64,000 bases of DNA from a virus, in the IMG/VR virus record IMGVR_UViG_3300032893_000016, positions 1 to 64,000 of that record, one strand, 5' to 3'. How positions within the stretch are numbered: the first letter of the stretch is position 1; every line of letters begins with the position of its first letter. The notes beneath the pieces were generated by a model. That model had not been told where the DNA came from. It made no database searches and saw only the letters and a list, made by a program, of their open reading frames with translations. The position numbers were made by a program, and so were the translations under genes. This document shows, one piece after another, positions 54,779 to 63,972 of the stretch.

Positions 54779-55699
54779 CTATCCGATCACGTTGGCACAG
54801 GCAAGGATAACCTGCCCAATACCATCACCCTTGTACATGACCTTGCCAAAGGCTTCGAGAACAGCAAGCGAGCGCGCGGCTTTTTTGGTGGTGTCGGCAC
54901 CCAGCGCGACTTTCGTATGATAGCCGATCACAACCCGGCGTATACTTTCCGGGTCGAGGTCCTTCATCTTTTCAACCAGTGCCATGATCTGCTTGTAATT
55001 GGAACTCTGCAACAGCAGCCGGGCCAGCTCAAAAGCCTCCGGCGCATTGGTCGCGGACTGCAGGAGCTCGGCTGCTTCTTCAACAGACCCAGCTTCCATG
55101 CAAATGTTCAGGTTCGACAGGGCCTGCCGGGGGCTGCCATTTGCCTCGTCGGCGCACAGCCCAATGATCTCCCCGCCGACCTTGTCGGTCAGGATATTTT
55201 CTTTGTCAGCAATGGTGCACAGGAAATTGTACAGCTCATCGCCCGTCAGGTCGCGCAAAGCGTACGAGGCAAAGCGGGTCTTGATGCTGGCCTTCAGCTT
55301 CGTCGGCGCTGTCGTACAGAAGAACCAATAAATCCACGGGGGCGGCTCTTCGAGCGATTTCAGCAAGGAATCCAGCGCTTGGCCGGACAAGCCTTGGCAC
55401 TCATCAATAATGATGGCGCGCGAACCGGACAGCCTATAGTTCAGCGTGGAAGTGATCTTCCGCATTTCGTCGATACCGGTGTTCGACGCTGCGTCAATCT
55501 CAAGGATGCCTTCATCGGGAACCCCGAACGCGCGGGCAGTAATGCGGGCCAAGGTCGTCTTGCCTGTGCCGGCGTTGCCTGTGAACATGAACCCTTGGGC
55601 GGACTTCTTGGCCACGACGGCCTTGAGAGATTTGACCGCGGCGTCCTGCCCTACCACCTCATCAAAGGTCTTCGGACGATATTTCGTAATCAAGCTCAT
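54779..55699 (-). CDS. Clamp loader, DnaX (gamma/tau)-like AAA+ ATPase
   Basis: KYRPKTFDEVVGQ; GTGKTTLAR; EIDAASNTGID; IIDEC; LLKSLEEPP. Confidence 0.92.
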   Translation of the reverse strand: MSLITKYRPKTFDEVVGQDAAVKSLKAVVAKKSAQGFMFTGNAGTGKTTLARITARAFGVPDEGILEIDAASNTGIDEMRKITSTLNYRLSGSRAIIIDECQGLSGQALDSLLKSLEEPPPWIYWFFCTTAPTKLKASIKTRFASYALRDLTGDELYNFLCTIADKENILTDKVGGEIIGLCADEANGSPRQALSNLNICMEAGSVEEAAELLQSATNAPEAFELARLLLQSSNYKQIMALVEKMKDLDPESIRRVVIGYHTKVALGADTTKKAARSLAVLEAFGKVMYKGDGIGQVILACANVIG

Positions 55700-58278
55700 G
55701 CGGCCAGCTTCCCCTTCCAGGTGTCGGACGCGTACTCGCCCGCCTTCTTAAGGTCATACCAACTCGGGCCTGCGGACATTTCCACCGTCAAAGGTACATT
55801 GACCCAATCGTAATCCGTGTACAGCATCTCGGTAACCACATCCTGCGCCCATTCATCCGCGCCCTTCTTCTTGCGGAAGAATGTCAAATCGTCATGGATG
55901 AACATATTGCACTGGTAATCAAGGCCGCGCTTGGACAGCCGCGTCGCCGCGCCCATGACGATGAAGGTCTCGCAAGCCTGAATGGGGCTGTTGATGACCT
56001 CGTTCATGGACATAGGCGCATGGCGGATCGTGCCATCCAGACTGATGACGTATCCATTCTGCTTGTAGAACTTAATGGCGCGCTCCTGCCATTCCTTCAC
56101 GCCTTCAAAGGTGTACCAGAACTCGTCATACAGCGGGCTGATGACCTTTTCGGGGATGTCAAGATTGTTGGCCACACTTTGCATGGCCGAGCCAAAGAAC
56201 AGCGGGAACGTCCAGCCATTCTTTACCACATCGCGGAACTTGCGGATCGGATCGTCTTCCAGGTGGAACTCGTCCATACGCCGCGGATATGCCTTGGCCA
56301 GCTTCTCGGTCCACTCCAAATGAATGTCATACCGATCCCAAAGCGCCTTGATGAACGAGCGATCCTGACTGGCCATCGCGATGATGCGCGCCTGAATCTG
56401 GCCGTAGTCGAACGCATAACAGTATTCATCCGAGCCGGGTCGTATCTGCTTGCGGACTTCCTTACCCTCAGCGTCGCGCTTGGGAAAGTTCTGCTCATTG
56501 GGGCCATCGGATGATGTGCGCCCCGTCTTGGTGAAGACCGTGTTCAAGGATGGATGCAGCAGCCCATCCTTCCAATAGTATGCGCCGCCCGGCCCCAGCT
56601 CCCGGATATAGGTCGACAGCATCTTCTCGACGCCGCGAAGGTGGACAATCTTGTCAAGGCCGGGCAGGTCAATTTCGTTCAGCACGTCTTCATCGGTGGA
56701 GTATTTTTCGTTGCCACCGCTATCGGTCTTCCAGCCCTCCTTACATTTGTAGACGTCCTTCAGGAGCTTTTCGACATCGTGGTTATTGGTGGGCTTGAAC
56801 GGCCGCCCGATTACTCTCTTAAACTCTCGCGCAATTTCAGACTTGGCGATCTCGTCGTGCAGATCGCGTGCAATGTCTTCATATTTATGAAGCAGGTCTT
56901 CGTTCTCGTCCGGATCAATAGGCACGCCTTTGAGCTGCGTGAGGACGGCTGTTGGAACGCGAGACATCCGCTCGTTGAAATGCTCTTCACGTTTTGCATC
57001 CCGTATAAGATCAAACTGTCGAACGCCAAGAAAGTAATGGTACCGAGTATCGAGCCCATTATAATGTAGAGTATCTTCCAAAGGCTCATTGAGCATGTCC
57101 TCCTTGTCCAGCGGGCTTAGAACTTTAAGGTCAAAGCCGAAGTGTTGGCGCACGAGGAAGTTCAGGGACAGCGGCCCCTGCCTACCCTTCTCGCCGACAC
57201 GCTCATCGAGCACAGCGGCCTGCACCATCGTGCAAATCCATTCGCCGGCTCGCAGGATGCTGTGCCCGAACAGGTAGCCAACCCACTCCATTTCAAAGGC
57301 CGCATTGTGGACCATCTTGATGACCTTGGAGCACAAGAACGTCTCGAAGGCATCTCGTATCTTCTCAAACTGCGCTTTCGTCCAGTTCGCCCGCGGATGC
57401 TCATAAGGGAAGGCCAGCACCTTCTCGCCCGTGCCAACCGCAATCGTCAGAAGGCGGCCATCATTGTACGGCCGGACAGTTTCGGTTTCAAAGTCCATGC
57501 CGACTGCCCATTGCTCGGCAGCCCATTCAAGGTGTGCGACGATCGTATCAACGTCCTCGTCCGTGCCACCCAGCACAATATCGACATTGATGTCGCGCTG
57601 GTCCACTTCGTGGTAGTACTGATTGACGTCGGCCCACTCGATCTTGTCCAGCTCTTTGAAGACGCGCCTTATGTCGAAGTCGAACGCGCGCTCATCCTCA
57701 TTGTAGATGCCAGCCGCATCGTTCTGCCAATCCTTGCGCTTCTTAAGGAGCTCGGCCGGGCTGACCACCGGGTATAACCAGCACACATGGCCAGCAATGT
57801 TAACCACCGCCCGCCTGCCGCGCCAATCATAGATACGATCGTCGCCTACGGCCCATTTGAGCGCCGCCTGCCCCACGGCAAGAATGGCCTTGGGCTTGGC
57901 AGCGGCAATGTCGCGCTCCACGCTTGGCCTGCAACACTCGACCTCGTACTTGGCGTCGGTCAGCTTGTTACCGGGCGGGTGCGTGCGCACCACATTGTTG
58001 AAGCGGATGTCGCTTTTCCAGTCTTTGGGGATACGCCGGCGTAACAGCAGCCCCGCCTCCCCGGAGAAGTGGTCGTCCTGTTTATCATCGGTCTTGGACG
58101 GGAACTCACCCAGCACATAAAGGAGGGGCTCGGACGCCCCGCTTGGGGCCATGTGGGGGTGGGCGTTCTTAACCTTATCTAAAGGACAAGCTCTACATTC
58201 CAAGCGACGTAGCAATTCCGCGGAAGGTTCTCCCTTCTTGCCCTTGCCCTTGCCCGTGCCTGAGGCTAGGAAACCCAT
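55696..58278 (-). CDS. polA: Family A DNA polymerase with an N-terminal UDG-like domain and 3'-5' exonuclease (SPO1-like architecture)
   Basis: CRACPL..GEFP; DFET, HNAAFE, YNGLD; TGRTSS..PNEQN.P; DYGQIQAR; R...K....F...FG; HDD. Confidence 0.92.
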   Translation of the reverse strand: MGFLASGTGKGKGKKGEPSAELLRRLECRACPLDKVKNAHPHMAPSGASEPLLYVLGEFPSKTDDKQDDHFSGEAGLLLRRRIPKDWKSDIRFNNVVRTHPPGNKLTDAKYEVECCRPSVERDIAAAKPKAILAVGQAALKWAVGDDRIYDWRGRRAVVNIAGHVCWLYPVVSPAELLKKRKDWQNDAAGIYNEDERAFDFDIRRVFKELDKIEWADVNQYYHEVDQRDINVDIVLGGTDEDVDTIVAHLEWAAEQWAVGMDFETETVRPYNDGRLLTIAVGTGEKVLAFPYEHPRANWTKAQFEKIRDAFETFLCSKVIKMVHNAAFEMEWVGYLFGHSILRAGEWICTMVQAAVLDERVGEKGRQGPLSLNFLVRQHFGFDLKVLSPLDKEDMLNEPLEDTLHYNGLDTRYHYFLGVRQFDLIRDAKREEHFNERMSRVPTAVLTQLKGVPIDPDENEDLLHKYEDIARDLHDEIAKSEIAREFKRVIGRPFKPTNNHDVEKLLKDVYKCKEGWKTDSGGNEKYSTDEDVLNEIDLPGLDKIVHLRGVEKMLSTYIRELGPGGAYYWKDGLLHPSLNTVFTKTGRTSSDGPNEQNFPKRDAEGKEVRKQIRPGSDEYCYAFDYGQIQARIIAMASQDRSFIKALWDRYDIHLEWTEKLAKAYPRRMDEFHLEDDPIRKFRDVVKNGWTFPLFFGSAMQSVANNLDIPEKVISPLYDEFWYTFEGVKEWQERAIKFYKQNGYVISLDGTIRHAPMSMNEVINSPIQACETFIVMGAATRLSKRGLDYQCNMFIHDDLTFFRKKKGADEWAQDVVTEMLYTDYDWVNVPLTVEMSAGPSWYDLKKAGEYASDTWKGKLAA

Positions 58279-58722
58279 CTAACTGCCCTTCGCAAAGACC
58301 ATACCCAAAGGATGGCGATGGCTGCCACCATAGTGGTGGCTCGACCATGTTTGCGGCTGGAACTGAAAATCAATAGGAAGGCCGGTCTGTGCCCGCAAGC
58401 GTTCGGAGATTGCGACGGTTAGAAGCGTCCACTTCGGATCATGCTCCCAATGGCCACCCCGGCTTAGATCTTTGTACCCCGCATCAGGAAACTCCGCGAT
58501 GAAGGCTTCATCCTTCATGATGAACCGAACGTCAACGTCACGCCAATCAGGCCGGTGCAAGACAGACCCAACTAGGTAGCAGCCGAACCCATCAAAGGCC
58601 CGGTTGATCTGAATGCACGCCTGATCGAGTAGGAAATACGTTGGAGGACCAATGTGGTCAATTTTCTTGCGCCTAGGTGGTATGAGCGGGGGCTCACATG
58701 CGTACTTGCCGGGCTTGAACAT
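58279..58722 (-). CDS. Minimal nucleotidyltransferase-fold protein
   Basis: YLVGS....RDVDVR..IDFQ. Confidence 0.65.
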   Translation of the reverse strand: MFKPGKYACEPPLIPPRRKKIDHIGPPTYFLLDQACIQINRAFDGFGCYLVGSVLHRPDWRDVDVRFIMKDEAFIAEFPDAGYKDLSRGGHWEHDPKWTLLTVAISERLRAQTGLPIDFQFQPQTWSSHHYGGSHRHPLGMVFAKGS

Positions 58723-59849
58723 TAGACCAGCCGAGTTGACGCCAAATAGGTGAACGTGCCAATCTGGAAGACGGCCGCCTTGTCGGTCAGCATCATCTTC
58801 ATGGGATCATCCTTCTTTTTCTTATCGGCATCCTCATCGGGATTGCTGACGGGCAACACCCGCTTGATGATGGCGGGGTCAACGTTCACCCTGATATTGG
58901 GGTGCTTACCGAAGTCCATCCGATCGTCCAGCTCGCCGAGGCCGCTCTTGGTGTACAGGATGAGCTCCCCGTTCTTGACTTCCATTTCAAGGGTCTCGCC
59001 CGGGAGGCCGGCGAGCAGCACGAGCGCCCGCTCGATTGCATTGGGGAACTGGTCGGGCACTTTCTGGAAGCAGGGCTTGGCCAGCGTGTCATCCATGGTA
59101 TCGAAGAATTTGTAGGGCTTGTTGACGTTGATCATGCGCCCGAAAATGCGGACGCCGTCATCATTGATGGCGTTGACTTCGCTCTCGGAAACGAAAAGCT
59201 TGCCGCCCTTCTTGCAGAGCTTCCTGACCAGCTCGCAGAAGTCGGAGGGGATGCAAACGCGCTTCAGCTTGTAGCCGGAAGGCAGCTTGCCGCGCACTTC
59301 CGTAATGCTGGCGCTATCGGTCGTGTAGGCGTACAGATCATCCTTGTCGGGGATGAACGTGACGCCGAGCTGATCCTGAACCGAAGTGTCGCGGCCCGCC
59401 GACAGCATGACCGTTTCCAGCATGACAAGAAAATCATTGCCAATCGTCCGGGTGGGCTTGCCAGTGACTTCGGGCTGATCCCACACCGAGGCACTCAAGG
59501 GGAGCAGCCCGGCCTCCAGCTTGGCACCAGCGGCCTTCATCCGCATCAGCGCCCCGTCCTCGCCCTCGACCTCTTCAAAGCTGACCGTGTCGGCCCCGCT
59601 GTGGGAAAGGAAGCCGGTGAGCAGCGCCCCATTCATGCCGCCCTTGAAAGGCGACTTGAAAGGTACCGTGATGCCGATCACATCATTGAAGGCCATCAGC
59701 GTGTCGCCGTTAAACCAGACGCACATCAGCGCCTCCAGCGGGCTCTTGGCCGCTACCGCGGGCGCGACCGTTTCAAGTGCCGCCAGCAAGTCCTTCCGGG
59801 GAAGTGTCTTGCCATCATTCGAAGTTGCTTTGCCGCCTCTGGCCATCAT
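58722..59849 (-). CDS. Sliding clamp (DNA Pol III beta-like)
   Basis: About 375 aa; three-domain beta-clamp pattern (L.GV.F..YTTDS, FGRMI..Y); near the clamp loader. Confidence 0.75.
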   Translation of the reverse strand: MMARGGKATSNDGKTLPRKDLLAALETVAPAVAAKSPLEALMCVWFNGDTLMAFNDVIGITVPFKSPFKGGMNGALLTGFLSHSGADTVSFEEVEGEDGALMRMKAAGAKLEAGLLPLSASVWDQPEVTGKPTRTIGNDFLVMLETVMLSAGRDTSVQDQLGVTFIPDKDDLYAYTTDSASITEVRGKLPSGYKLKRVCIPSDFCELVRKLCKKGGKLFVSESEVNAINDDGVRIFGRMINVNKPYKFFDTMDDTLAKPCFQKVPDQFPNAIERALVLLAGLPGETLEMEVKNGELILYTKSGLGELDDRMDFGKHPNIRVNVDPAIIKRVLPVSNPDEDADKKKKDDPMKMMLTDKAAVFQIGTFTYLASTRLV

Positions 59850-60032
59850 CAAAACCCTTGCGTTGCTTTTTAGGCATACGCGCGAGCTTTTCGGGCCTGC
59901 GGTCAGCGGGAATGTCCAATGTACTCTTGACGGGGCTGTGCATATAGAAGTACGACAGAAGCCAAGCGTTGCCTCCGACACGACGAAGCAGCGGGCACCA
60001 AGTCTTCTCACCACGCATGGGAATGGCGTACA

Positions 60033-60284
60033 CTACTCGCACGAGTCCTCCGTTTGCTTGGCGTGTGCAAGGATGGCCTTCACGCGACGTTTATCGTGGG
60101 TTGTGTTGCCCCATGTCCCGTTGAACTTCTTGGAGGGCGGGCGGATGCCGGTGGCGGAAATGGCCGCCAGCCATTCAGGCTTCCATTCGTGGATGATATA
60201 GTGGTACGAATAAAGGCGCGGGCAATCCATTAGCGTCAGGATGCGCGAGCACCAATCATCGTTCCCAGCGTACAGGATGCGCAT
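60033..60284 (-). CDS. Small protein resembling the DpdA N-terminal module (copy 2)
   Basis: MRILYAG..PRLYSYHY; TAATG-coupled to the previous ORF. Confidence 0.6.
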   Translation of the reverse strand: MRILYAGNDDWCSRILTLMDCPRLYSYHYIIHEWKPEWLAAISATGIRPPSKKFNGTWGNTTHDKRRVKAILAHAKQTEDSCE

Positions 60285-60523
60285 TACTCAACCTGTCGGG
60301 CAGCCGCAAGAACGGCCAGCCTCCGCCGCCGCATGTACGATCCATTGTCAAAGCCGCGCCGTTTCTTGCCCGACACCTTCTTTTCACCATGCAGGTAATC
60401 CTTGAGGTCGGCCTTCTCGGTCACCATGAAATAGTAGGACAGCAGCCGCGGTAGATCGCCCAGCGCGTTCAGCACTTGGCGTTGATACTCCGCGGTGGGC
60501 CAAGTTGCGTACACAAGTTTCAA
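60284..60523 (-). CDS. Small protein resembling the DpdA N-terminal module (copy 1)
   Basis: MKLVYAT..PRLLSYYF. Confidence 0.6.
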   Translation of the reverse strand: MKLVYATWPTAEYQRQVLNALGDLPRLLSYYFMVTEKADLKDYLHGEKKVSGKKRRGFDNGSYMRRRRLAVLAAARQVE

Positions 60524-60527
60524 AAGA

Positions 60528-60770
60528 TTACTCGCATTTCAGGAACACCGATGCCAGATAACGGACCTCGGCAAACGGGAACAAAAGTCGCTGCCAATTC
60601 CTAGCCTGATTCTCGGAGAAGCAGAACACAGGCGACCCCTTAAAGAAGATGATACCCATGATGGGGTGAACCAGCCAGTACTTTTCCTTGATGTGAAGCA
60701 CATGGCCTTCCGACGCAAACTGCGCATCGGGCAACGCCTTGTAAGAAACTCTCTGATCGTCAGCTTCCAT
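60528..60770 (-). CDS. Hypothetical protein
   Basis: Overlaps the end of dpdA. Confidence 0.5.
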   Translation of the reverse strand: MEADDQRVSYKALPDAQFASEGHVLHIKEKYWLVHPIMGIIFFKGSPVFCFSENQARNWQRLLFPFAEVRYLASVFLKCE

Positions 60771-61608
60771 GGGAAAGCTTCAGCCGGTGGCGGAACACAT
60801 CTACGCCGGCGTGCTCCTCGAACTTCTTCATAAAGTAGACAATGGCGCGGGCACGAGCTTCATAATCGTGCGCGCAATCCAGCACCGTAACCCCCACCTC
60901 GTTTTCCAGCCAGTTGGATATCATGGCGCGTACCGACGGGCCCATCAAGAGGAAATGGTCGGAAGGGGTGCCCTTGTCACGATCGGTGGCGCTGATGGTG
61001 TGCTTGAGAGGCGCCTCCTTGTAATTGGGCTTTCCGTTCTTGAACTTGGGGATCAGGATTGATCCGTACGCGGCCGTCTGCGCCCATGACGTTGCGTCGC
61101 AGGTCGTCCAAGGGTAGCGGGCCATCAGAGGGAAGCTGCTCATAGCAAAGCCGTGGGTCTTGACCAGCGGCTTGCCCTTGTGATCGGTCAGATAGGTGAA
61201 GCAGGTATCCAGCCAACGCCGGGCCTCAGATGCGCCACACAGATTGGTCGCCGGGGAAAGGCCGATGTAGGGCTCTCTGTCCTGCAACATGCGCTCCAAC
61301 CAGAACCAGCGCTCTCCGCGGTGGAACACAGGAATGGGGGAAAGCCCCGCCTTTTTCATCTTCTGCAGGTTCTGATAAGAGGCGCGGGCACCGGCTTCCG
61401 CATCGTCCGCGGTGCGCTTCTTATCCTTCTCGCCGGGAATCACATCCAGATTGACATAGGTATCAATGTACTGCAGGTTGTCTTTGATGTACTTTATGTA
61501 ATCGTTCAGGTTGATCTCAGTCTTCTTCGTGAACGCGCTGAAAGCCCCTGAATCTAACATAATAAAGACTTTTTCCTTTTTGGGCTCTTCGAGCCTAACG
61601 CGTGTCAT
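60760..61608 (-). CDS. dpdA: DNA 7-deazaguanine transglycosylase (DpdA, TGT fold)
   Basis: LDSGAFS, NLDVIP, PIPVFH.GE, YIGL, THGFA, YPW...D.TSW; next to folE and queC. Confidence 0.85.
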   Translation of the reverse strand: MTRVRLEEPKKEKVFIMLDSGAFSAFTKKTEINLNDYIKYIKDNLQYIDTYVNLDVIPGEKDKKRTADDAEAGARASYQNLQKMKKAGLSPIPVFHRGERWFWLERMLQDREPYIGLSPATNLCGASEARRWLDTCFTYLTDHKGKPLVKTHGFAMSSFPLMARYPWTTCDATSWAQTAAYGSILIPKFKNGKPNYKEAPLKHTISATDRDKGTPSDHFLLMGPSVRAMISNWLENEVGVTVLDCAHDYEARARAIVYFMKKFEEHAGVDVFRHRLKLSHGS

Positions 61609-62053
61609 CAGATGCGTAGCTCCGAATATGGAGGCAGGGCACGTTCAACTCTTGGTACACCTTAATGACTTCGTGCATATCGTCAAAGGCCATCTCAATG
61701 AACCAGCCTTCTCTCCGCACCTTATGGACCATCCCCCGCTTAACCTCGGCCGTCGTTGTGCCCCAGTCGCCATTGGCGCGAGCCAAGATGCGGCTGCCAT
61801 CAATCGGCACGTCATGCTTGTACAGCCAGTCCTGCATTTCAGGGATGGACCCTTCATGCTTGCCGGTAAACAGAAACAACGGATGAACCTTGGCAAGATT
61901 GCGCGCCAGCTTCACCATCTGGTAAAGCGGCGGATCACGGTAGAACTTCTCGTCCCACTCTTTCCACTCTTTCGCCTTGGCGTGGTGAATGCGATGGCTA
62001 GGGTCGGAAAGCGTGCCCTCCATGTCGAACACGTAGCAGGACGGTTTACCCAT
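61595..62053 (-). CDS. HAD-family phosphatase (PNKP phosphatase-like)
   Basis: VFDMEGTL, FTGK, K, AFDD motifs. Confidence 0.8.
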   Translation of the reverse strand: MGKPSCYVFDMEGTLSDPSHRIHHAKAKEWKEWDEKFYRDPPLYQMVKLARNLAKVHPLFLFTGKHEGSIPEMQDWLYKHDVPIDGSRILARANGDWGTTTAEVKRGMVHKVRREGWFIEMAFDDMHEVIKVYQELNVPCLHIRSYASDDTR

Positions 62054-62811
62054 TACAAGTCAGCCCAAAGCTTTCGATGCTTTACAATTACGTACGGAAC
62101 AATCTCCGCCTTGCGGTTTCCATCGTAATGAGTACCATGCTTCATTTCGGAAAGGATGGCAAGGTTGGCTTCAACCGAGAGCGGATCAACCTCGTAGGCC
62201 TCCGGGATGCCAAGCTGGCCAAAGACACCCCAGCGCCGGAAGCATGAAATGCAGTGACCGCAAGGCGTCGGCGTGTTGCTGAGGCACGAGTTCGTGTTAT
62301 GGATTTCCTCCACCGACACGCCACGCTGCAACAAATACTCAACGATCGACACCTTGTTCCAACCGCGGGCGGCCAGCGGAAACATGACCTCCAGGTTGGG
62401 CTTCATCGTCGTGTAGCTGAGGACCGTAGTCATCATATGACGGAACGTGTTATTCTTATCAACCGCCTTGGCGTGGGTTTCACCCGCCAACGCCCCAATC
62501 CACAGCTCATCGGGCAAGGTCATGCAAGCCGCAAGCGCCGCCAGCGCCATGTTGCGACCCGGAATGTAAATATCGCCGGCGAGGCCCATGGTCTTGATCC
62601 CATCCTTGGTCTTGCCCAGCCAGTCGACGCGTCGGATATCAGTTTCGGGCGGGAGGGACCTGATCTCTTTCTCCAAGTAGGGCTGGCCAATGTCGAAGAA
62701 GATTGGATGAACTACGACCGGCTCAGCGCCAATGGGGATGTACCCTTTGCAAAGGTAATACATGGCCAAGCTATCGAGGCCACCCGAGTAAAGGATTGTC
62801 ACCTTGGTCAT
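62053..62811 (-). CDS. queC: 7-cyano-7-deazaguanine synthase
   Basis: LYSGGLDS, IPGRN and SC......CG.C.SC..R Zn site. Confidence 0.9.
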   Translation of the reverse strand: MTKVTILYSGGLDSLAMYYLCKGYIPIGAEPVVVHPIFFDIGQPYLEKEIRSLPPETDIRRVDWLGKTKDGIKTMGLAGDIYIPGRNMALAALAACMTLPDELWIGALAGETHAKAVDKNNTFRHMMTTVLSYTTMKPNLEVMFPLAARGWNKVSIVEYLLQRGVSVEEIHNTNSCLSNTPTPCGHCISCFRRWGVFGQLGIPEAYEVDPLSVEANLAILSEMKHGTHYDGNRKAEIVPYVIVKHRKLWADL

Positions 62812-63383
62812 TTGTTGGCCTCCGCCGCCAGCGCCAGAAACTCCGAGCGAGCCTTGGCATCCTGGAACATTGCACCCCGAAAAGCTGTCGTGGTCGTCCA
62901 CGTTCCTGCAATGCAGACACCCCGGCTTTCCATGCACCGGTGTCGACAGCGCACAAGCACGCCCGCGCCCTTGGCGTCAAGATGCTTGAACAAAGCGTCG
63001 ACTATCTGATTGGTCATCCGCTCCTGAACTTGCAAACGGTGGGCAAAAATATCCACCAGCCGCTTCAGTTTGGAAAGCCCCACGATCCCCTTCTCGCCGG
63101 GGATGTAGGCAATATGCGCCACCCCAAAGAACGGGGCCATATGATGCTCGCAGAAGCTATTGACCGGCAGGTTGGCCTGGAAGATCATTTCATCGTAATG
63201 ATGACCGGCCTCTTCGAAGACCTTGAGGACGTCCTCCGGCTTCTGATTGTAGCCGCTAAACCAATGCTTGAAGGCTTTAGCCACACGTACCGGCGTATCC
63301 TTTAAGCCCTCACGGTCGAAGTTGCCGGGCTCAATCTGCTCCAGCATTGCCCTTACGGCCGCCTGAATTTCAACTTCACGCAC
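62808..63383 (-). CDS. folE: GTP cyclohydrolase I
   Basis: REGL.DTP.RVA, SFCEHH, GLSKL.R, RLQVQER.T, H.CM..RG. Confidence 0.95.
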   Translation of the reverse strand: MREVEIQAAVRAMLEQIEPGNFDREGLKDTPVRVAKAFKHWFSGYNQKPEDVLKVFEEAGHHYDEMIFQANLPVNSFCEHHMAPFFGVAHIAYIPGEKGIVGLSKLKRLVDIFAHRLQVQERMTNQIVDALFKHLDAKGAGVLVRCRHRCMESRGVCIAGTWTTTTAFRGAMFQDAKARSEFLALAAEANK

Positions 63384-63972
63384 GGATAAACAGGCCCCAA
63401 ATCTCAGCGTGCCCGGCACGCAACTCAACTGTCTCTACCGGACATACGGAACTGAACCCATTAAGCTGCATAAAGTGTACTAACCAGCGCTCATCCCAAA
63501 TCGTATAGTGGTACTCCCAAAAGGCCCATTCAGACTTCCGATGGGGCACGGCAATGAAGACAAGGCCATCGTTGGGGTCCAGCATGCTCCGCGCCGCCGC
63601 AATGGCAGCATAGGGATTGTAGACGTGCTCCAAAGAATGATTCAGCACGACGAGGTCGAACTTCTCATCCTTGAACAAATGGCGCAGGTTGGGATCGGTC
63701 ATATCCCAGCGCCGGATATCCAGGTTGAACGGATTGATACTGAAATGAGTGTCGACGCCCGCCACCCGCCGCACAATGCCCGGGTTCATGGACCGAAGCT
63801 GGTTCAGGCAGGTGCCGTAGTCGCACCCCAACTCCAGCACGGACTTGGGCAGCCCAAAATTGTGCTCGAACAGACGATGTGCAAGCCAGTCCATGCCCTG
63901 CCGGGCATAGCTCTCAATCTCCCGCGACCGACCATCATCGTCATGGTTGTGGTGCGCTGTATGCTCCGGCAT
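63376..63972 (-). CDS. Class I SAM-dependent methyltransferase
   Basis: VLELGC..G, FDLVV..HSLEHV, IAVP. Confidence 0.85.
   Translation of the reverse strand: MPEHTAHHNHDDDGRSREIESYARQGMDWLAHRLFEHNFGLPKSVLELGCDYGTCLNQLRSMNPGIVRRVAGVDTHFSINPFNLDIRRWDMTDPNLRHLFKDEKFDLVVLNHSLEHVYNPYAAIAAARSMLDPNDGLVFIAVPHRKSEWAFWEYHYTIWDERWLVHFMQLNGFSSVCPVETVELRAGHAEIWGLFIRA

What the first reader, a model, noticed from the sequence alone, without database searches (positions are those of the whole stretch)
60033..61608. Split DpdA with two alternative small N-terminal subunits
Seen: this DpdA reaches LDSGAF after only about 17 residues. From my recollection of the family, phage DpdAs usually start with two barrel strands of the form (L/I)YFAG...RL(L)SY before that motif, and these are absent here. 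Two coupled ~80-aa ORFs just downstream each carry that pattern (MKLVYAT..PRLLSYYF and MRILYAG..PRLYSYHY), followed by different basic tails. Inference: the TGT barrel is completed in trans, and two interchangeable small subunits could give one catalytic core two DNA-sequence or base specificities. That would be a modular DNA-hypermodification enzyme.
Basis: partly seen in the sequence, partly recalled or inferred. Interest (0 to 1): 0.85.

Follow-up and report, generated by a model that had tools for sequence, protein, structure and literature searches.

The report
Split phage DpdA with spare barrel-quarters
This phage's DNA-modifying enzyme DpdA, which swaps guanine for a 7-deazaguanine, is encoded without the first quarter of its barrel fold, and three small genes just downstream each encode a version of that quarter; I found this layout in many uncultured phages but in no paper.

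Summary
The 282-aa DpdA (60760-61608, minus strand) reaches LDSGAF at residue 18. By homology it matches only residues 85-371 of Z. mobilis TGT, so it lacks barrel strands beta1-alpha1-beta2. There are three downstream paralogous mini-genes, not two: A 60284-60523, B 60033-60284, C 59815-60042. Each carries that module.

The same about 33-residue module occurs in relatives in three arrangements:
- fused to the N-terminus of the core
- fused to the C-terminus, a circular permutation
- as 1-5 free mini-genes beside dpdA

All 201 module hits in 103 of 178 loci lie on the dpdA strand. AlphaFold models of natural fused forms are confident. The N-fused module superposes on TGT residues 40-84. The permuted form has six core strands plus two module strands. 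A library-wide profile search found 475 clusters, mostly free 41-107-aa proteins.

Trans-completion of the barrel is therefore well supported, though only indirectly, because the complex predictor was closed. The idea that alternative modules retarget specificity is untested. It is plausible because the module carries the beta1/alpha1 and beta2/alpha2 loops, which published structures link to substrate and DNA contact.

Earlier notes of this scan reported the same arrangement in at least seven other genomes. I found no description of it in the papers I searched.

The parts
60760..61608 (-). DpdA core (282 aa): TGT-fold DNA 7-deazaguanine transglycosylase carrying barrel units beta3-beta8 and the three conserved Asp (D19 in LDSGAF, D55, D171). 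It lacks beta1-alpha1-beta2.
   Evidence: phrog_887 E 8.5e-44, protein residues 16-206 to profile positions 58-238. Invariant columns are listed in A2. It is 44% identical over residues 14-275 to residues 9-269 of the one-piece L019 protein. The model of that protein aligns residues 1-265 to Z. mobilis TGT residues 85-371, Z 13.8-14.4.
60528..60770 (-). 80-aa ORF of unknown function between dpdA and module gene A. Its start overlaps the dpdA stop by 11 nt. It is not a module paralogue.
   Evidence: Gene-like GC by codon position, 0.53/0.34/0.68. No Pfam or PHROG family. No homologue in the other 177 loci.
60284..60523 (-). Module gene A (79 aa, TTG start). It is a 'T-type' quarter-barrel (beta1-alpha1-beta2, then a 'DYLHG' helix, a basic linker and a terminal helix). 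It is the likely primary partner of the core.
   Evidence: Module HMM E 7e-8. An orthologue lies directly after dpdA in the closest locus, L018. It is collinear with residues 292-360 of the C-fused L019 protein. hhalign to the N-termini of fused DpdAs gives 94% probability. The T-type profile finds 475 clusters library-wide.
60033..60284 (-). Module gene B (83 aa, ATG start overlapping A's stop in TAATG). It is a second version of the quarter-barrel, with a shorter beta1/alpha1 loop and a different beta2/alpha2 segment.
   Evidence: Module HMM E 7.9e-6. 36% identical to A. GC3 0.76.
59815..60042 (-). Module gene C (75 aa, GTG start preceded by GGAGGA). Its tail is shorter, with no terminal helix, and its 3' end overlaps the likely clamp start near 59849.
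   Evidence: Module HMM E 4.5e-5. 36% identical to A. RBS read directly from the sequence.
61595..63972 (-). Upstream genes of the same operon: an HAD/PNKP-type phosphatase (61595-62053), QueC (62053 to about 62811), GTP cyclohydrolase I FolE (62808-63428) and a SAM methyltransferase (63376-63972). These genes supply the 7-deazaguanine base.
   Evidence: Pfam matches. QueD lies at 64758-65309 and a radical-SAM protein at 79986-80288 of the same record, both outside the window.
58722..59849 (-). Sliding-clamp gene that follows the module array. The order dpdA, small genes, clamp, PolA is the same as in Edwardsiella phage ZHS and in Vid5.
   Evidence: phrog_947 E 1.9e-25. Annotated regions.

Best explanation
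The phage makes its DpdA as a split (beta/alpha)8 barrel. The 282-aa core supplies strands beta3 to beta8 and all three catalytic or base-binding aspartates. The missing first quarter (beta1, the beta1/alpha1 loop-helix, beta2 and a short following helix) comes from a separate protein of about 80 aa that docks into the open barrel.

ORF A is the most likely standing partner, because it belongs to the module class that relatives fuse to the C-terminus of the core. ORFs B and C are further versions of the same piece that can occupy the same slot. The assembled enzyme then exchanges guanine in phage DNA for the 7-deazaguanine made by the adjacent FolE/QueD/QueC genes and a candidate QueE.

**Shown:** the missing segment, the homology of the small ORFs to it, natural fusions in both orders, confident eight-stranded models of the fused forms, and wide conservation of free modules beside dpdA.

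**Inferred:** binding in trans, that all three modules are used, and what difference the choice of module makes.
For: 1. **The core is short by exactly beta1-alpha1-beta2.**
   - The N-fused homologue model aligns residues 1-310 to TGT 40-371 (Z 20.0, rmsd 3.1 A, 266 aligned).
   - The core-first permuted homologue aligns only residues 1-265 to TGT 85-371 (Z 13.8-14.4).
   - The window core is 44% identical to that core.
2. **The small ORFs carry that piece.**
   - hhalign gives probability 94% and E 1.4e-7, ORF A residues 1-33 against fused DpdA residues 1-36.
   - In the N-fused model the same segment forms strand 2-5, helix 13-22 and strand 27-31, ahead of the LMLDS strand at 48-52.
3. **Fusions occur in both orders (Rosetta-stone evidence).**
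   - About 11 of the 120 closest homologues have the module at the N-terminus.
   - A profile built almost entirely from free modules (one of its 32 rows, L101:910-1197, is the C-terminal part of a fused ORF) hits the C-terminal extension of more than 20 core ORFs at E<0.01.
   - Window DpdA plus ORF A are collinear with the one-piece L019 protein.
4. **The natural C-fused protein models as one compact domain.**
   - pLDDT is 94.6 and pTM 0.92.
   - It has six core strands plus module strands 291-295 and 313-317, with block-mean pLDDT 91-98 over residues 281-330.
5. **Conservation across loci.**
   - 201 module ORFs lie in 103 of 178 loci, all on the dpdA strand. The background is 9018 plus-strand against 13685 minus-strand ORFs.
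   - 129 of 174 free copies start with Met exactly at model position 1, and 30 more with Leu or Val.
   - 37 of 69 unfused cores with at least 1.5 kb of flank have one to five free modules. None of 8 C-fused cores does (Fisher p 0.005).
6. **Library-wide census.** 475 clusters match at E<=1e-3. The best 150 are nearly all 41-107-aa proteins matched from residue 1.
7. **A cultured phage shows the same layout.** In Edwardsiella phage vB_EpM_ZHS, DpdA starts 10 residues before FLDSGAY and two small ORFs of the same pattern follow.
Against:
- 32 of the 69 unfused cores had no module detected within the flanks. This may reflect the limits of a 33-position HMM, since several have room for a divergent N-terminal module, but it leaves open that some cores work alone.
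- 7 of 9 N-fused cores also have free modules. A simple 'one missing piece' model does not explain that.
- The module HMM does not reach the N-termini of the canonical DpdA1 proteins of Vid5 and K251 (E>5). The link to that clade rests on shared pattern and fold.
- In this window an unrelated ORF separates dpdA from module A.
Confidence: 0.8

Rival explanations
1. Only one module, ORF A, is the working small subunit. ORFs B and C are redundant or decaying duplicates with no distinct role.
For: C-fused relatives manage with a single module and never carry extra ones (0 of 8). 12 of the 37 unfused loci that have modules carry exactly one. In this window B and C have no close counterpart in other loci. 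Their best matches are within the locus or weak. C has a truncated tail that overlaps the clamp start.
Against: 25 of 37 module-bearing unfused loci carry two to five copies. 125 of 134 modules in multi-copy loci are closer to a module in another phage than to their own neighbours, so distinct classes are old and maintained. B and C keep intact frames, gene-like GC3 and their own start signals, and C has the best RBS of the three.
Confidence: 0.25
2. The mini-proteins are regulators or competitors rather than structural parts. For example, they could time DpdA activity or poison a host TGT/Dpd enzyme by mimicking its first barrel quarter.
For: N-fused cores, which should already be complete, often keep free modules (7 of 9). 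In bacterial TGT the beta1/alpha1 loop-helix is part of the homodimer interface (PMC5395182), so a free copy could in principle interfere with an interface.
Against: Unfused cores have no other source of beta1-beta2. The module is covalently part of the enzyme in both fused architectures. Nothing here points to a host target.
Confidence: 0.07
3. The core works alone with a six-stranded or otherwise rearranged barrel, and the resemblance of the small ORFs to DpdA N-termini has no functional meaning.
For: 32 of 69 unfused cores had no detected module nearby.
Against: Strand bias of 201 to 0, Met at model position 1, two fusion orders, the library-wide family of free mini-proteins, and the 94% hhalign match. 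I know of no TGT-family enzyme that lacks beta1-beta2 (my own knowledge).
Confidence: 0.04

Closest known systems
Phage DpdA1 (Enterobacteria phages 9g and CAjan, Pantoea phage Vid5, Vibrio siphophages)
   Same: Same TGT-like fold and LDSGAF and 'W..DS.SW' motifs, with 31-33% identity over the core. Same genomic place, between the preQ0 genes and the clamp/polymerase genes. Same expected reaction, post-replicative guanine exchange in DNA (PMC6884629, PMC10516641).
   Different: DpdA1 is a single chain with beta1-alpha1-beta2 at its own N-terminus; the motif sits at residues 62-67. Here that piece is absent from the core and is encoded three times as separate genes.
Bacterial DpdA of the Dpd system (S. 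Montevideo, PDB 7UI4)
   Same: TIM-barrel transglycosylase with three invariant Asp (Asp95, Asp130, Asp256; PMC10164549). Their counterparts D19, D55 and D171 are invariant in the window's family. 7UI4 is among the Foldseek matches.
   Different: The bacterial enzyme is a single chain with a Zn site (CXCX2CX22H) and a large Ins8 insertion, and it needs the ATPase DpdB. The window protein has no such Cys motif, no DpdB neighbour, and is split.
Bacterial tRNA-guanine transglycosylase (Z. mobilis TGT)
   Same: Best structural match of the fused homologues (Z 20.0). The module corresponds to TGT residues 40-84. [quoted passage not shown]
   Different: TGT acts on tRNA, has an N-terminal beta-sheet lid and a Zn subdomain, and is one chain forming homodimers.
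Eukaryotic TGT heterodimer QTRT1/QTRT2
   Same: It is a two-subunit member of the TGT family (mentioned in PMC10164549).
   Different: Both of its subunits are complete barrels. Here a single barrel is divided between two polypeptides.
Split and circularly permuted TIM barrels (HisF half-barrels, engineered fragment complementation)
   Same: A (beta/alpha)8 barrel assembled from separate (beta/alpha)n pieces, and barrels that tolerate permutation. This comparison rests on my own knowledge and was not checked here.
   Different: The cases I know are laboratory constructs or inferred ancestors. Here the split, the permutation and a set of alternative quarter-barrels occur naturally within one enzyme family.

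Membership tests
TGT/DpdA superfamily (7-deazaguanine transglycosylases) | Significant sequence-profile match to a TGT/DpdA family | tested here: met
   phrog_887 E 8.5e-44. tblastn matches annotated phage queuine tRNA-ribosyltransferases in 183 phage records. No Pfam family matched.
TGT/DpdA superfamily (7-deazaguanine transglycosylases) | Three invariant active-site aspartates: a general acid/base in the DSG motif, a base-recognising Asp, and a nucleophile Asp (PMC10164549) | tested here: met
   D19 (LDSGAF), D55 (NLDVIPG) and D171 (CDATSW) are invariant in 46 homologues. Their equivalence to Asp95, Asp130 and Asp256 is by motif and order, not by residue-level superposition.
TGT/DpdA superfamily (7-deazaguanine transglycosylases) | A complete (beta/alpha)8 barrel within one polypeptide | tested here: not met
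   By homology the core covers only TGT residues 85-371. Strands beta1 and beta2 are found in separate ORFs.
TGT / bacterial DpdA | Structural Zn site CXCX2CX22H | tested here: not met
   No such Cys/His motif is present in the 282-aa sequence. The phage DpdA1 sequences read here also lack it.
Phage DpdA systems | Genomic association with 7-deazaguanine (preQ0) synthesis genes | tested here: met
   FolE and QueC are in the same operon. QueD lies at 64758-65309. A radical-SAM candidate for QueE lies at 79986-80288.
Phage DpdA systems | Inserts a 7-deazaguanine into DNA | not testable with these tools
   This needs LC-MS of phage or plasmid DNA.
Phage DpdA1 (9g/CAjan/Vid5 type) | N-terminal beta1-alpha1-beta2 segment in the same chain, ahead of LDSGAF | tested here: not met
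   The motif is at residue 18 here, against residues 62 and 67 in Vid5 and K251.
Free DpdA quarter-barrel mini-proteins (unnamed family defined here) | About 33-residue module (consensus MKIYLA[GT]...RLLSY[YF]) starting at the initiator codon, encoded next to dpdA and on its strand | tested here: met
   ORFs A, B and C score E 7e-8, 7.9e-6 and 4.5e-5 and are the only hits in the 98-kb record. The family comprises 201 ORFs in 103 loci, all on the dpdA strand, and 475 clusters library-wide for the T-type.

The most novel reading that the evidence does not exclude
One catalytic DpdA core pairs in turn with several interchangeable quarter-barrel subunits. Their different beta1/alpha1 and beta2/alpha2 loops and basic tails would change which DNA sequence contexts are modified, or how densely, or the assembly state of the enzyme. 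This would be a natural combinatorial enzyme in which a quarter of a TIM barrel is the swappable specificity part, with permuted and fused relatives as fixed versions.
Probability: 0.25. Interest if true: 0.92.

Novelty: new variant of a known kind. Interest (0 to 1): 0.8.

Why it matters
- **DNA modification.** DpdA is the signature enzyme of 7-deazaguanine DNA modification in phages. The published work I read treats it as a single-chain enzyme (PMC6884629, PMC10516641, PMC10164549). If a large clade needs a separately encoded quarter of its barrel, expressing the 'dpdA' gene alone would fail. Annotation pipelines would keep calling the partners hypothetical proteins. The real unit of function would be a core plus a small-subunit set.
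- **Protein evolution.** Natural split, circularly permuted and multi-copy quarter-barrel forms within one family would be a living example of the modular (beta/alpha)2 assembly of TIM barrels. That assembly has so far been argued from ancestral reconstruction and engineering (my own knowledge).
- **Specificity.** If the alternative modules change specificity, this would also explain how one DpdA could serve more than one motif, and it would offer a compact handle for engineering.

Tried and rejected
No result was obtained.
Context for the 50-58% identical relatives from Logan assemblies could not be fetched. The closest locus with DNA is L018, at 52% identity.

**Searches with no result**
- tblastn of ORF A against 50,697 phage records: no match.
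- Word-index search with the small-ORF alignment: only the window's own ORFs.
- phmmer of the window DpdA and of Vid5 DpdA against PDB sequences: nothing meaningful.
- Pfam: no family for DpdA or for any small ORF.
- Paper searches for DpdA with 'split', 'barrel' or 'circular permutation', and for phage ZHS: no description of the arrangement.

**Checks that failed or fell short**
- The module HMM does not detect the N-termini of Vid5 and K251 DpdA1 (E>5).
- Slippery repeat switches were reported for such mini-genes in earlier notes of this scan. In 59800-60800 I found no dinucleotide run of four or more units and no homopolymer of six or more.
- Single-linkage clustering of the modules lumped 128 of 174 into one cluster and was dropped in favour of a simple T/G typing at positions 6-7.

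**Idea rejected**
- I considered that the 80-aa ORF might be a fourth module. It is only 21% identical to ORF A in the alignment, lacks the motifs, and is not hit by the HMM.
Full report
**What is in the window**

On the minus strand a tight run of genes reads as follows:

| Gene | Coordinates |
|---|---|
| SAM methyltransferase | 63376-63972 |
| FolE | 62808-63428 |
| QueC | 62053 to about 62811 |
| HAD/PNKP-type phosphatase | 61595-62053 |
| DpdA | 60760-61608 |
| 80-aa ORF | 60528-60770 |
| Small ORF A | 60284-60523 |
| Small ORF B | 60033-60284 |
| Small ORF C | 59815-60042 |
| Sliding clamp | from about 59849 |
| 147-aa protein | 58279-58722 |
| Family-A DNA polymerase with an N-terminal UDG-family domain | 55696-58278 |

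The record is a 98-kb IMG/VR virus contig estimated to be 76% complete. QueD lies just beyond the window at 64758-65309, and a radical-SAM candidate for QueE lies at 79986-80288.

**The observation**

- DpdA (282 aa) has LDSGAF at residues 18-23. It matches phrog_887 at E 8.5e-44, but only from profile position 58 onward.
- One-piece phage DpdAs (Vid5, Vibrio K251) reach the motif at residues 62 and 67, after a segment with two hydrophobic strand-like motifs.
Both B and C are 36% identical to A.
- A and B overlap in TAATG, and B and C overlap by 10 nt. C has GGAGGA 3 nt before its GTG start. A starts at TTG, in exactly the register of its homologues.
- All of these ORFs have gene-like GC by codon position.
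- A module HMM hits only these three ORFs in the whole record (E 7e-8 to 4.5e-5; the next hit has E 0.46).

**Relatives**

A search of 5.8 billion proteins gave 317 homologues of the core. Most of the 120 best start within about 25 residues of the motif, like the window protein. About 11 carry an extra N-terminal segment of the form M.F..(A/G)G ... L.SY(Y/W/F).

I fetched 160 loci from metagenomes and IMG/VR. I then iterated an HMM of the module over all stop-to-stop ORFs.
- It converged on a 33-position model with consensus MKIYLAG ... RLLSYYYI.
- It hit 201 ORFs in 103 of 178 loci.
- All 201 hits lie on the dpdA strand, although the background has more ORFs on the other strand (9018 against 13685).
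- Of the 174 free copies, 129 begin with Met exactly at model position 1 and 30 more with Leu or Val.
- The median length of a free copy is 58 aa. Their tails are basic, with median pI 9.6.

**Three architectures**

The module occurs in three arrangements:
1. Fused to the N-terminus of the core (21 ORFs).
2. Fused to the C-terminus of the core (16 with the first HMM). A profile built almost entirely from free modules hit more than 20. One of its 32 rows, L101:910-1197, is the C-terminal part of a fused ORF.
3. Free, immediately downstream (131) or upstream (33) of dpdA, in one to five copies.

Two classes stand out:
- A 'T-type' (..YLATW.., followed by a Y..TG helix) is the one found C-terminally fused or free downstream.
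- A 'G-type' (..YLAG..G..) is the one found N-terminally fused, and also free on either side.

Window ORF A is T-type, and its orthologue sits right after dpdA in the closest locus, L018. The window DpdA (residues 14-275) and ORF A (residues 3-69) are collinear with residues 9-269 and 292-360 of the one-piece protein of L019.

**Structure**

*N-fused homologue P0013* (55% identical to the window core):
- The AlphaFold2 model has pLDDT 92.8 and pTM 0.90.
- It shows strand 2-5, helix 13-22 and strand 27-31 before the LMLDS strand at 48-52.
- It superposes on Z. mobilis TGT as residues 1-310 against 40-371, with Z 20.0, rmsd 3.1 A and 266 aligned residues.

*Natural C-fused protein of L019:*
- The model has pLDDT 94.6 and pTM 0.92.
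- It has six strands in the core, then strand 291-295, helix 300-308 and strand 313-317. Block-mean pLDDT is 91-98 over residues 281-330.
- In a sequential alignment only residues 1-265 superpose on TGT, against residues 85-371, with Z 13.8-14.4.

The module therefore corresponds to TGT residues 40-84, that is beta1, the beta1/alpha1 loop-helix and beta2. The core starts where TGT beta3 starts, and the C-fused forms are circular permutations.

hhalign of the ORF A family against the N-fused family aligns ORF A residues 1-33 with DpdA residues 1-36 at 94% probability and E 1.4e-7. I could not inspect coordinates, so the eight-strand barrel is a strand count plus high confidence, not a verified strand order. 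The complex predictor that would have tested the window's own pair was closed.

**How widespread**

A profile of the T-type family, scored against 1.84 billion cluster representatives, found 475 clusters at E<=1e-3 and 170 at E<=1e-10. The best 150 are almost all proteins of 41-107 aa matched from residue 1.

Among non-redundant loci with at least 1.5 kb on each side of the core:
- 37 of 69 unfused cores have one to five free modules.
- None of 8 C-fused cores has a free module (Fisher p 0.005).
- 7 of 9 N-fused cores do.

In multi-copy loci, 125 of 134 modules are closer to a module of another phage than to their own neighbours. The classes are therefore old and maintained, not recent tandem copies. 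In this window only A has such an outside counterpart. B and C look lineage-specific.

A cultured phage, Edwardsiella phage vB_EpM_ZHS, has the same layout. Its DpdA starts 10 residues before the motif, and two small ORFs of the pattern follow. One of them is the top, though weak, HMM hit in that locus (E 0.007).

**Mechanism**

*Best supported:* the core and a mini-protein assemble into one barrel, and ORF A is the default partner.

All three conserved aspartates are in the core (D19, D55, D171; roles as in PMC10164549). The module is therefore structural and substrate-facing rather than catalytic.

What the choice of module changes is not known. Two published structures make an effect on substrate recognition plausible:
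[quoted passage not shown] The Thr47-Thr62 loop-helix is part of the dimer interface (PMC5395182).
- In bacterial DpdA, the beta1/alpha1 insertion helps form the DNA-binding surface. [quoted passage not shown]

Both of those loops lie inside the module, and they are the parts that differ most among A, B and C. By register, the class-defining residues after beta1 (A-G against A-T-W) fall at about TGT positions 45-47. That mapping is approximate, because only alignment ranges were available.

**Open problems**

- The simple missing-piece model does not explain why N-fused cores keep free modules.
- No module was detected near 32 of the 69 unfused cores.
- I cannot say whether ORF C, with its shortened tail overlapping the clamp start, is functional.

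**Novelty**

The papers I searched and read on phage and bacterial DpdA do not mention a split or permuted DpdA or small partner proteins. One of them notes that DpdA3 and DpdA4 could not be made to work in E. coli (PMC10516641). That may or may not be related.

Earlier notes of this scan describe the same arrangement in at least seven other genomes, and in this same stretch read from another window. Some of those notes report slippery repeats as on/off switches; I found none here.

I file this as a new variant of a known kind: a known enzyme family in an undescribed split, permuted and multi-module architecture.

Noticed in passing
window 60528-60770 (-): An 80-aa ORF with gene-like codon-position GC sits between dpdA and module A, and its start overlaps the dpdA stop. 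It has no Pfam or PHROG family and no homologue in the other 177 loci.
   Followed up: partly
window 61583-61608 (-), DpdA residues 1-9; homologues P0014-P0071: The core begins MTRVRLEEP, and many short-form homologues begin M(x)ERV(K/R). In N-fused forms the same ERV/ERI(K) motif is internal, between the module and LDSGAF. It could be a docking peptide or simply the end of the linker helix.
   Followed up: partly
window 55696-58278 (-): The family-A DNA polymerase carries an N-terminal UDG-superfamily domain (PF03167, E 1e-13). That is notable in a phage that replaces guanine in its DNA.
   Followed up: no
window 61595-62053 and 63376-63972 (-): A HAD/PNKP-type phosphatase and a SAM methyltransferase lie inside the FolE-QueC-DpdA operon. 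The final base may therefore be something other than plain preQ0.
   Followed up: no
L004-L015 (IMG/VR loci): A more distant DpdA clade with the motif LDSGAH(S/T) also starts only a few residues before the motif. I did not check whether it has its own free modules.
   Followed up: no
P0147 (207 aa), P0187 (218 aa), P0277 (394 aa): A few longer proteins match the T-type profile. One has two matched stretches and may be a tandem double module. One 394-aa protein has the match at residues 7-55 and may be an N-fused T-type. The sequences were not inspected.
   Followed up: no
L128, L130, L135, L136, L158, L059, L073 and others: Cores that already have an N-fused G-type module are often followed by a free T-type module, whereas C-fused cores never have extras. 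This suggests the two classes are not simply equivalent, or that an internal start produces an unfused core isoform.
   Followed up: partly
L001 (Edwardsiella phage vB_EpM_ZHS) 4718-5128: ZHS has an annotated nucleoside 2-deoxyribosyltransferase between its module genes and the clamp, at the place where this window has module C. Its N-terminus (MKINKLYLCGP) superficially resembles the module start.
   Followed up: no
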